From a virus (Duplodnaviria > Heunggongvirae > Uroviricota > Caudoviricetes): 13,322 bases of DNA. The stretch is from IMG/VR virus record IMGVR_UViG_2740892369_000029; one strand, 5' to 3'. The first letter of the stretch is position 1, and every line of letters starts with the position of its first letter. The position numbers were made by a program, and so were the translations under genes. This document shows, piece after piece, positions 11,280 through 13,322 of the stretch. Below the pieces are notes generated by a model. The model was not told the origin of the DNA, ran no database searches, and was given only the letters and a program-made list of their open reading frames with translations.

Positions 11280-11948
11280 TCACTCTCCTTTGATGCGAAT
11301 GCCAGTAGCGCGGATAGATTTCCATTGTTTCCACATTCGGTTGAAGTCTGTGCCTGATAAGGTTGCGTTACGGTATCCAGTTTCGGTACGCAATCCTTCA
11401 AGCGTCGATTTGGAGATACAAATTGAATGCATTACCCATGATTCAAACAAATCACGCTCCCGGGCTTCGCAACTTTGCTTACTCATCTCTTCGATACGTT
11501 CAGCCATCGCAGCACACTCTTCAAAGTTGCTTAATGCTTTTCGCTCCCATTCGGCGCATTGTTTTCCAAGCTCTGCAATCAGCTTGTCTTTGCCTTCCAG
11601 CTCAACACGCAGTTTCCCTACCGTTAGCGCAATATCCTCGTTCTCCTGATCGCGGCGTTTGATGTATTGCTGGTTTCTTTCCAGTTCATCCAGTAATGCC
11701 AGCACAGTAGCCGGATTGGCTGCGGCGATGAATTCAGCATTGGCCTGCTGTTCCATTTGGAAATCTTCATCGAAACCGCTTTCTGGATGTGCTCCTTCAA
11801 TTCTGCAAATGGGAAGATATCCAACAACTTCACGATGAATTAACGCATCATCACAATCAAATCGGCTCTCTCCATATTCGAGCGACCATACACCACACGT
11901 TGCTTTTTCTGCCTTGGCACGCAGTGCCTGATAGTCAATCAGGCTCAC
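11280..11948 (-). CDS. ead/Ea22-like family prophage protein, about 222 aa
   Basis: Contains LLDELERNQQYIKRRDQENEDIALTVGKLRVELEGKDKLIAELGKQ, the coiled-coil segment I associate with lambda Ea22-like proteins. Proposed start is the GTG at 11946-11948 (VSLIDYQALR...), preceded by a perfect AAGGAGG 5-11 nt upstream and overlapping the upstream stop (GTGA). The ORF-track ATG at 11981 has no such support. Confidence 0.7.
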   Translation of the reverse strand: MSLIDYQALRAKAEKATCGVWSLEYGESRFDCDDALIHREVVGYLPICRIEGAHPESGFDEDFQMEQQANAEFIAAANPATVLALLDELERNQQYIKRRDQENEDIALTVGKLRVELEGKDKLIAELGKQCAEWERKALSNFEECAAMAERIEEMSKQSCEARERDLFESWVMHSICISKSTLEGLRTETGYRNATLSGTDFNRMWKQWKSIRATGIRIKGE

Positions 11949-12532
11949 TGGTTGCCTCCTTTGCGAATCTGTTCCGCCCATTCTTCAAGGGATTTCTCCG
12001 CATATTCACCAGACAGGCCATCAATCGGATGCGGTTCATTAGCCAACTCTTCTTTCGCTGACAGAATCATGCGCGTAACATCGAAAACTTCACGTAAAGA
12101 CTTATTGATAAATCCGTGGTTGAAAGCAGCAGCAAGACGGCTTGCGGCATAGTTAATACCCTCGTTGCGTGCTTCCGCACGTACTTCAGCCAGGAAAGCA
12201 TCGGTGGCTGGGGTTTTGATTTCGTTAAGCGCATCACTGAATAAACCACGCTCCATACCTAGCTCTGCTTCGTAATCGGCATCGAATGCAGCGTCTTTGC
12301 AGAACTTCTTCATCCCCGCACTCTCCGCTGCCAGCGCCGCGCACTTGGCCTCAAGGTTATCAATCGTGATTCCAGCAGAACGACACTCCCGCAACGCCGT
12401 TTCCAGTTTTGATTCAAGTTCACCGAACTTACGGACAAGATATTCAGCGTTTGTTTCGTTAACCTTTAGATCTCGTGGGATGCATTTACCTTTCAGAAAA
12501 CCATCCATCTCAATTAGTGACATTTGTTTCAT
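11945..12532 (-). CDS. Hypothetical prophage protein, about 195 aa
   Basis: ORF track 11945-12550 begins at a GTG. The ATG at 12530-12532 (MKQMSLIEMDGF...) is preceded by GGAG at 9-nt spacing. No recognisable domain. Confidence 0.6.
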   Translation of the reverse strand: MKQMSLIEMDGFLKGKCIPRDLKVNETNAEYLVRKFGELESKLETALRECRSAGITIDNLEAKCAALAAESAGMKKFCKDAAFDADYEAELGMERGLFSDALNEIKTPATDAFLAEVRAEARNEGINYAASRLAAAFNHGFINKSLREVFDVTRMILSAKEELANEPHPIDGLSGEYAEKSLEEWAEQIRKGGNQ

Positions 12533-12703
12533 TTTTTCCCACTCCGCCACATAGCATTCAGATATTTGTTGTCATTAACAGAACCGAAACTCTTTCTCTT
12601 AAGCAATTACTCTCTCGATGGCATTGGCTTTACGCGTTGGCGAATAATCATTTCTGCCGGAAGAATGCCGGGATTGTATGCAAGTCCTCTCATGGTAAAT
12701 TCC

Positions 12704-12997
12704 TCAGTCATTACTGATAGCGCCATAGCGTGAGCGGTAATTACGCAGGCGCGGGTCAATTTCAGGGAAGTGGGTATATGTGGCTTTGCGGAATGGTCGG
12801 ATTGATGTCTGGTAAATTCGCTCGCGTTCTTCTTTCTCTGCAAGCCATATACAATGGCGAAATTCCTTTTCCTCTTTCGTTTCCTGCGGTAGCGACATTA
12901 TCCGATCGTAGTTTTTTCTGAATTTATCCAGCACCTCCGATACGGAATTGCCGGAACAGCGGCGTGGGTCATCCGCACCATACAGAGGCGCTGGCAT
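12704..12997 (-). CDS. Hypothetical prophage protein, 97 aa
   Basis: ATG at 12995-12997 preceded by AAGGA at 8-nt spacing, only about 23 nt downstream of the stop of the SSB-tail ORF. Charged protein, no domain recognised. Confidence 0.55.
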
Positions 12998-13020
12998 AAT
13001 TAAATCCTTATTTTTCTAAA

Positions 13021-13275
13021 TCAGAATGGGATGGAATCGTCGTATACAGGAGTGTTCTGCTGGTTACTACTTTGCTGCTGCGGGCCATTTCCTGAAGCTG
13101 CAAATCCAATCTTTGCATTCAGTAATTCAAGAGTGATTGATTGACCATTTTGCCCCTGATAAACATCAACCCTGATGTTTTCTCCGGTAATTTCCACAAT
13201 GCCACCTTCAACAAGAACACTACGGTAGTAATCCGCTTGCGCTCCCGGCTTGGCAAATACTGAGGTAGCCTGAGT
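13021..13275 (-). pseudogene. 3' portion of an SSB-like gene (OB-fold-like segment and acidic C-terminal tail ...YDDSIPF), apparently disrupted upstream
   Basis: The frame ending at the TGA at 13021-13023 encodes ...FAKPGAQADYYRSVLVEGGIVEITGENIRVDVYQGQNGQSITLELL...GNGPQQQSSNQQNTPVYDDSIPF. The tail resembles the SSB C-terminal DDDIPF motif. This frame contains no ATG and has in-frame stops at 13276-13278 and further upstream; the N-terminal part would lie in another frame or beyond the window edge. Confidence 0.35.
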
Positions 13276-13322
13276 TTAACGGACACTCCTTCCTGAAATA
13301 GAATGGCATCAGAAGGAGCTAA

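What the first reader, a model, noticed from the sequence alone, without database searches (positions are those of the whole stretch)
13021..13322. SSB-like ORF with canonical acidic tail (YDDSIPF) but in-frame stops upstream, at the window edge
The C-terminal tail matches the SSB protein-interaction motif, and the preceding segment resembles the distal OB fold. The same frame has no start codon and contains stops at 13276-13278 and upstream, while another frame is open to the window edge. Either the prophage ssb carries a frameshift (pseudogene), or this is a short tail-mimic protein, or there is a sequencing error.
Basis: seen in the sequence. Interest (0 to 1): 0.4.

Follow-up and report, generated by a model that had tools for sequence, protein, structure and literature searches.

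The report
Phage ssb gene cut by IS600
The "SSB-like ORF with upstream stops" is the back half of a prophage single-strand-DNA-binding gene (HK97 gp40 type) that was split by an IS600 insertion sequence, so it is an ordinary, already annotated pseudogene.

Summary
On the minus strand, 13021-13260 holds codons 49-127 plus the stop of a 127-aa prophage protein of the HK97 gp40 family (published as "SSB-1b"). At 13261 the sequence switches to the left end of IS600 (IS3 family).

The window is 100% identical to E. coli strain 97-3250 (NZ_CP027599.1). There the insert is 2531 bp: one IS600 carrying a second, identical, inverted IS600, each flanked by a 3-bp TAC duplication. The missing 5' part (codons 1-49) lies on the far side, next to erf. 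Removing the insert in silico restores an intact ORF. That ORF occurs uninterrupted at 100% identity in other E. coli genomes and encodes the same protein as an Stx1a phage.

The intact family has the SSB layout:
- an OB-fold core (AlphaFold2 pLDDT above 90; top structural matches are bacterial SSBs; PHROG_44 E=3e-27);
- a Q/N/S-rich disordered linker;
- a conserved [FYW]DDxIPF tip.

It sits between erf and abc2. No Pfam family matches it, and RefSeq calls it "hypothetical protein". Interest is low.

The parts
13021..13260 (-). 3' remnant of the phage ssb gene (HK97 gp40 / 'SSB-1b' type): codons 49-127 plus the TGA stop at 13021-13023. It has no start codon of its own.
   Evidence: Translation. 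RefSeq marks the same span in the identical record as a pseudogene 'incomplete; missing N-terminus'. Joining it to the 49-codon 5' fragment beyond the IS restores a 127-aa ORF.
13096..13260 (-). Residues 49-103: the distal part of the OB fold (end of beta3, the alpha-helix at 55-63, and strands 69-74, 76-84, 87-95 and 98-103).
13045..13095 (-). Residues 104-120: a Q/N/S/G/P-rich linker, predicted disordered and variable in length across the family.
   Evidence: pLDDT below 50 for residues 107-122. Family members range from 123 to 185 aa, and the difference lies in this segment.
13024..13044 (-). Codons for YDDSIPF, the SSB-type acidic C-terminal tip.
   Evidence: Read directly from the sequence.
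13258..13260 (.). TAC, one copy of the 3-bp target-site duplication made by IS600. On the minus strand it is GTA, codon V49.
   Evidence: In L001 the same TAC follows the other end of the insert (...CACCTCA|TAC).
13261..13322 (+). First 62 bp of IS600 (IS3 family, 1264 bp). It begins with the left inverted repeat, TGAGGTAGCC.... It holds a promoter-like pair, TTAACG (13276-13281) and TAGAAT (13299-13304), and the AAGGAG ribosome-binding site (13313-13318). The transposase ATG would be at 13325, just past the window end.
   Evidence: RefSeq annotates 'IS3-like element IS600 family transposase' starting 3 bases past the window end in the identical record. The element measures 1264 bp with imperfect terminal inverted repeats. 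This 62-bp stretch recurs in thousands of places in E. coli genomes.
12704..12997 (-). abc2 (anti-RecBCD), the intact next gene downstream in the same recombination module.
   Evidence: 97-aa ORF, annotated 'phage anti-RecBCD protein' or Abc2 in RefSeq and in HK97.

Best explanation
The region is the junction between a prophage gene and an insertion sequence. The gene belongs to the early-left (PL) recombination module erf - ssb - abc2 of an HK97/HK75-type lambdoid prophage.

Intact gene (inferred function): it encodes a 127-aa divergent SSB with an OB-fold core, a disordered Q/N-rich linker and an acidic ...YDDSIPF tip. By analogy with bacterial SSB, it would coat single-stranded DNA and use the tip to recruit partner proteins, such as the Erf annealing protein and/or host SSB-binding enzymes.

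In this genome (shown): IS600 transposed into codon 49 and duplicated TAC. A second identical IS600 later landed inside the first. This separates the 5' 49 codons, which stay next to erf, from the 3' 79 codons in the window. The 5' fragment now ends at a TGA supplied by the IS end. The 3' fragment lacks a start codon and the first three beta-strands, so it is a non-functional remnant. The in-frame stops at 13276-13278 and 13309-13311 and the 'other open frame' are the IS600 left end (inverted repeat, transposase promoter and RBS) read backwards.
For: Identity of the locus:
- The window matches NZ_CP027599.1 1723591-1736912 with 0 mismatches over 13322 bases.
- Similarity to uninterrupted phage and prophage copies stops exactly at window base 13260.

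The insertion:
- From 13261 on, the sequence is the annotated IS600.
- The insert is 2531 bp, that is 1264 + 1264 + 3. The inner copy is inverted and identical to the outer copy (0 mismatches), and both are flanked by TAC.
- In-silico excision gives an intact 127-aa ORF.
- That restored gene is present at 100% identity over 384 nt in other E. coli genomes, including O26:H11 str. 11368. Stx1a phage LC744179 encodes an identical protein.
- The gene/IS junction occurs as a single piece in 9 complete-genome records.

SSB nature of the intact family:
- PHROG_44 'single strand DNA binding protein', E=2.9e-27.
- AlphaFold2 mean pLDDT 84, above 90 over the core.
- hhalign against E. coli SSB gives 92.5% probability, E=5e-7, in register through the core and the tail.
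- The tip is conserved.
- The gene lies between erf and abc2.
- HK97 gp40 has been published as 'SSB-1b' on the basis of its predicted fold (PMC12315714).
Against: - No Pfam family matches, not even PF00436, at E<=10.
- NCBIfam SSB models score only 13-14 bits against cut-offs of 54-246.
- The family profile finds just one PDB SSB, at E=0.2.
- ssDNA binding, oligomeric state and the partners of the tip have not been tested for any member of this family.
- The 5' half and the rest of the IS are outside the window. They are inferred from the identical public record.
Confidence: 0.95

Rival explanations
1. Frameshifted ssb pseudogene: a small indel moved the reading frame, and the frame that stays open to the window edge is the upstream part of the gene.
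For: Frameshifted copies of this gene do exist elsewhere. Phage HF4s has a 1-nt deletion in the A6 run at codons 38-40, and the HK97 reference has a 1-nt insertion 4 codons before the stop. The alternative frame in the window is open for 67 codons.
Against: Beyond 13260 there is no similarity to the gene at all. The sequence is the IS600 end. The true 5' part lies 2531 bp further on in the identical genome and joins in frame once the IS is removed.
Confidence: 0.01
2. Assembly or sequencing error, such as a chimeric join at a repeat.
For: The window ends inside a multi-copy IS and starts inside another (IS66 tnpA). These are the places where assemblies typically break.
Against: The same junction is present at 100% identity in 9 complete-genome records. 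It carries an exact 3-bp duplication and complete IS ends, which is the signature of real transposition.
Confidence: 0.01
3. A short, expressed tail-mimic protein. The 58-aa GTG ORF (13021-13197) or a similar product would be translated and act as a decoy carrying the SSB tip, driven by read-through from the inverted inner IS600.
For: A GTG at 13197 is preceded by GAAGGTGG, a Shine-Dalgarno-like string. The inner IS600 is oriented towards the fragment and carries the same promoter-like site. abc2 downstream is intact.
Against: The ORF exists only as a by-product of an insertion seen in 9 records. It is not independently conserved, because every homologue is the full 123-185-aa protein or an obvious truncation. 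It would lack beta1-3 of the OB barrel and probably would not fold. No expression data exist.
Confidence: 0.03

Closest known systems
HK97 gp40 ('SSB-1b' of Rec modules in lambdoid phages; Genome Res 2025, PMC12315714)
   Same: About 94-95% protein identity. Same position between erf and abc2, same length class and same predicted OB fold.
   Different: The window copy is split by IS600, and only codons 49-127 are present. The window-type protein ends ...YDDSIPF, whereas the HK97 reference reads ...YDDSNPILI because of one extra A.
Bacterial SSB (E. coli Ssb; Pfam PF00436 / TIGR00621)
   Same: The layout is OB core, then disordered linker, then acidic ...DDxIPF tip. SSBs are the best structural matches, and hhalign gives 92.5% probability.
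   Different: Sequence identity is about 10-18%. The protein scores below every curated SSB model threshold. It is shorter (127 vs 178 aa). Tetramer formation and DNA binding are untested.
IS600 (IS3 family insertion sequence)
   Same: The 62 bp at 13261-13322 are identical to the left end of a 1264-bp element annotated as IS600. The element has TG...CA ends, a 3-bp duplication and a transposase made by programmed frameshift.
   Different: None found. Only the first 62 bp lie inside the window. In the full locus the element carries a second copy nested inside it.
P22 Abc1 (the gene at the same position, between erf and abc2, in P22)
   Same: Same position in the PL operon. This rests on my own recollection of the P22 gene order, not on a tool result.
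   Different: PMC12315714 states that the P22 Rec module encodes no SSB. Phages with Salmonella in their name made up only 4 of the 202 tblastn matches. I did not compare the sequences directly.

Membership tests
HK97 gp40 / SSB-1b family | Full-length sequence similarity to HK97 gp40 | tested here: met
   The window fragment matches residues 49-127, and the restored protein is about 94-95% identical to HK97 gp40. 318 homologues have E<=1e-3.
HK97 gp40 / SSB-1b family | Location in the Rec module between erf and abc2 | tested here: met
   abc2 lies immediately downstream in the window. erf lies immediately upstream of the 5' fragment in the identical record.
HK97 gp40 / SSB-1b family | Intact open reading frame | tested here: not met
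   The frame is interrupted after codon 49 by 2531 bp of IS600 x2. The locus is a pseudogene of this family.
Bacterial-type SSB (PF00436 / TIGR00621) | Score above the curated threshold of the sequence models | tested here: not met
   Pfam gives no hit at E<=10. TIGR00621 scores 13.5 bits against a cut-off of 53.95.
Bacterial-type SSB (PF00436 / TIGR00621) | OB fold of the SSB type | tested here: met
Bacterial-type SSB (PF00436 / TIGR00621) | Disordered linker followed by an acidic tip ending in IPF | tested here: met
   The window encodes ...NTPVYDDSIPF*. P126 and F127 are invariant in the family alignment and the linker varies in length.
Bacterial-type SSB (PF00436 / TIGR00621) | Binds ssDNA; forms a homotetramer | not testable with these tools
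   No experiment on any SSB-1b member was found (PMC12315714).
PHROG_44 (phage SSB super-family built by remote homology) | Significant profile match | tested here: met
   E=2.9e-27 and 97 bits, over residues 2-127 of the restored protein.
IS600 / IS3 family | Terminal inverted repeats TG...CA, length about 1.26 kb, 3-bp target duplication, orfAB transposase with programmed frameshift | tested here: met
   The element is 1264 bp with TGAGG...CCTCA ends and TAC duplications. RefSeq annotates 'IS3-like element IS600 family transposase, programmed frameshift'. Only 62 bp are inside the window.

The most novel reading that the evidence does not exclude
The IS600 insertion could have created a small expressed protein: about 58 aa from the GTG at 13197, made of the last OB strands, the linker and the YDDSIPF tip. 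Transcribed from the inward-facing inner IS600 together with abc2, it would act as a decoy for host SSB-tip-binding proteins. A more modest reading also remains open. The SSB-1b family carries a conserved host-like SSB tip. The paper naming the family does not mention this in its main text, and the tip is missing from the HK97 reference sequence because of a 1-nt insertion.
Probability: 0.03. Interest if true: 0.4.

Novelty: already known. Interest (0 to 1): 0.1.

Why it matters
It matters little. This is one more IS-inactivated gene in a decaying prophage of a Shiga-toxin-type E. coli lineage, and RefSeq already flags it as a partial pseudogene.

Two practical points follow:
- **Annotation gap.** The HK97 gp40-type SSB is common: it is uninterrupted (80% coverage or more) in 572 of 5426 complete E. 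coli genomes. It is still labelled 'hypothetical protein' and escapes Pfam and NCBIfam. Its conserved ...DDxIPF tip is good extra evidence that it is a working SSB able to engage SSB-binding partners.
- **IS ends can mislead.** IS ends at contig or window edges create apparent 'in-frame stops' and spurious open frames that mimic frameshifts.

Tried and rejected
- **Pfam scan.** Neither the restored protein nor the fragment gave a hit, even at E<=10.
- **NCBIfam.** Only sub-threshold SSB hits, E 0.05-0.07.
- **Profile search of PDB sequences.** A single marginal SSB hit, 4dam, E=0.2. Sequence alone was therefore insufficient, and I turned to structure prediction.
- **Structure prediction with the restored protein as first row.** I used the 97%-identical database protein P0002 instead.
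- **Frameshift and sequencing-error readings.** Both were considered and rejected.
- **Open alternative frame as a real gene.** Rejected. It is IS600 antisense sequence plus the +1 frame of ssb. The same +1 frame appears as the tail of the frameshifted HF4s 'ssb protein'.
- **Promoter and terminator scan.** It found only the IS600 transposase promoter-like site, and the count of sites was no higher than in shuffled sequence.
- **Not used.** The representative-protein search, the metagenome and genome contig scans and the RNA tools, because nothing pointed to an RNA element or required deeper homology.

Full report
**1. The observation**

I read 12400-13322 and translated the reverse strand in three frames. 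One minus-strand frame reads SSF*CHSISGRSVR*TQATSVFAKPGAQADYYRSVLVEGGIVEITGENIRVDVYQGQNGQSITLELLNAKIGFAASGNGPQQQSSNQQNTPVYDDSIPF*.

- The final stop is at 13021-13023, and YDDSIPF is encoded at 13024-13044.
- After the TAA, no ATG/GTG/TTG occurs until the GTG at 13197. The mechanical ORF is therefore only 58 aa.
- Another minus-strand frame is open from the window edge down to 13119.

The description is accurate.

**2. Where the frame really ends**

Megablast of 12700-13322 against complete E. coli genomes and against phages showed that most matching prophages and phages (HK97, HK106, HK542, Stx1a phages, O26:H11 str. 11368 and others) align only up to window base 13260. A small set of genomes match to the end.

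The window is identical, with 0 mismatches over 13322 bases, to E. coli strain 97-3250, NZ_CP027599.1 1723591-1736912. In that record:

- 13021-13260 is annotated as a pseudogene, 'incomplete; missing N-terminus'.
- An 'IS3-like element IS600 family transposase' starts three bases past the window end.

The last 62 bases of the window (13261-13322, TGAGGTAGCCTGAGTTTAACGG...) are thus the left end of IS600. This end holds:

- a promoter-like pair, TTAACG (13276-13281) and TAGAAT (13299-13304);
- the AAGGAG ribosome-binding site at 13313-13318, with the transposase ATG at what would be base 13325.

The 62-bp stretch recurs in thousands of places in E. coli genomes, as expected for a multi-copy IS.

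**3. Anatomy of the insertion**

In the extended locus L001:

- The insert is 2531 bp and is flanked by TAC on both sides.
- It consists of one 1264-bp IS600. A second 1264-bp IS600 sits in it at position 722/723 in the opposite orientation, again flanked by TAC.
- The two copies are identical (0 mismatches).
- On the far side lies a 49-codon ORF, MAHSITVRLNKPAREFQAGENIGFNIRAGVQYYDRQTKKKEWTNYSAVV*. Its stop is supplied by the IS terminus. Next to it is an intact erf gene.

Removing the insert and one TAC gives an intact 127-aa ORF. That restored 384-nt gene occurs uninterrupted at 100% identity in other E. coli genomes, including O26:H11 str. 11368. It is at least 80% covered in 572 of 5426 complete genomes. 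Stx1a-converting phage LC744179 encodes an identical protein.

The exact gene/IS junction is found as a single alignment piece in 9 complete-genome records, two of which appear to be the same strain. A real transposition event in one lineage explains the data. A frameshift or a sequencing error does not.

**4. What the gene is**

The gene is the homologue of HK97 gene 40, located between erf and abc2. Phage HF4s annotates its copy as 'ssb protein'.

Sequence evidence:
- Curated models do not recognise it. Pfam gives no hit, and NCBIfam SSB models score 13-14 bits, far below their thresholds.
- PHROG_44, the phage SSB family built by remote homology, matches at E=2.9e-27.
- A database search found 318 homologues in Enterobacterales and beyond, mostly unnamed. 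A few are called SSB by JGI.
- In phages the family is also annotated 'single strand DNA binding protein' or 'nucleic acid-binding, OB-fold protein', notably in many Vibrio phages.
It aligns KEWTNYsAVVFAK with TEWHRVVLFGK and runs in register to the IPF end.

Family anatomy: members share three parts.
- a conserved core of about 100 aa;
- a Q/P/G/N-rich segment of very variable length (total protein length 123-185 aa);
- a C-terminus of the form [FYW]-D/E-D/E-x-I/P-P-F, with P126 and F127 invariant in the 35-sequence alignment.

Structure:
- AlphaFold2 on that alignment, with the 97%-identical P0002 as first row, gave mean pLDDT 84. The core scores above 90 and residues 107-122 score below 50. 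The order of elements is beta-beta-beta, helix, then beta strands, as in an OB fold.
- The Foldseek top 50 against the PDB were all bacterial or mitochondrial SSBs or PriB (best E=3e-5, TM 0.4-0.55).
- The profile-to-PDB sequence search gave only a marginal SSB hit, E=0.2.

Together these support a highly diverged SSB-type protein. The window keeps only residues 49-127: the end of beta3, the helix, the last strands, the linker and the tip.

**5. What is already known**

A 2025 Genome Research paper on lambdoid recombination modules (PMC12315714) makes these points:
- It names HK97 gp40 'SSB-1b' on the basis of an AlphaFold 3 model resembling bacterial SSB, with at most about 15% identity to the ES18 SSB-1.
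- It lists an 'HK75' functional module type (anti-RecBCD + SSB + annealing protein, no nuclease) with 27 phages. The erf-ssb-abc2 arrangement here has that composition.
- No experiment on the protein is reported.
- Its main text does not mention the acidic tip.

On the likely role of the tip, PMC12054835 summarises the view that annealing proteins need specific contacts with the SSB C-terminal tail, and that phage SSBs often sit in operons with them. The likely mechanism for the intact protein is therefore that it coats ssDNA and uses the tip to recruit Erf and/or host SSB-binding proteins. This is inference, not shown.

**6. Rivals**

- **Frameshift.** Rejected, because similarity to the gene ends abruptly at an IS terminus and the 5' part is found in frame 2.5 kb away.
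- **Sequencing or assembly error.** Rejected on the 9 concordant records and the exact target duplications.
- **Expressed tail-mimic.** Not excluded, but it has only circumstantial support: a GAAGGTGG string before the GTG at 13197, and an inward-facing inner IS600. The fragment is not independently conserved and lacks half of the OB barrel. I put it at about 3%.

**7. Verdict**

This is an IS600-disrupted pseudogene of a known, though poorly annotated, phage SSB family. It lies in a prophage that shows other decay in the same window: an integrase with an internal stop, a DUF2737 gene with an internal stop, a truncated Ea22-like gene and another frameshifted IS3-family transposase. Novelty is nil and interest is low.

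Noticed in passing
L002 (HK97, NC_002167.1) about 2817-2840; compare window 13021-13044: The HK97 reference sequence has one extra A (GATTCCAATCCC vs GATTCCATCCC) four codons before the stop of gene 40. Its annotated protein therefore ends ...YDDSNPILI instead of the family-wide ...YDDSIPF. This is either a real loss of the tip in HK97 or an old sequencing error.
   Followed up: partly
L003 (phage HF4s, MT833387.1) 2809-3204: The HF4s 'ssb protein' (94 aa) plus the following 36-aa ORF are a frameshifted copy of the same gene. One A is missing from the A6 run at codons 38-40.
   Followed up: partly
window 1-8 and 13261-13322: Both ends of the window fall inside insertion sequences: IS66-like tnpA at the left and IS600 at the right. 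This looks like a short-read contig bounded by repeats.
   Followed up: no
window 7235-8425, 11472-11948, 12407-12693, 4678-5817: RefSeq marks several other genes in the identical record as decayed: an integrase with an internal stop, a truncated ead/Ea22-like gene, a partial hypothetical gene, a DUF2737 gene with an internal stop, and a frameshifted IS3-family transposase. The prophage appears to be a decaying remnant.
   Followed up: no
window 11280-11981 and 11945-12550 (minus strand): The mechanical ORF list gives long ORFs of 233 aa and 201 aa here. RefSeq annotates only partial pseudogene fragments at 11472-11948 and 12407-12532. The mismatch was not examined.
   Followed up: no
window 2141-4501 (plus strand): A 786-aa gene annotated 'type I restriction enzyme HsdR N-terminal domain-containing protein' sits beside the prophage integrase end, flanked by IS elements. 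It could be a defence-type cargo gene. It was not examined.
   Followed up: no
L001 4562-7092 (beyond the window end): One IS600 is nested inside another identical IS600 in inverted orientation, and both have the same TAC target duplication. This suggests a preference of the element for this trinucleotide or its context.
   Followed up: partly
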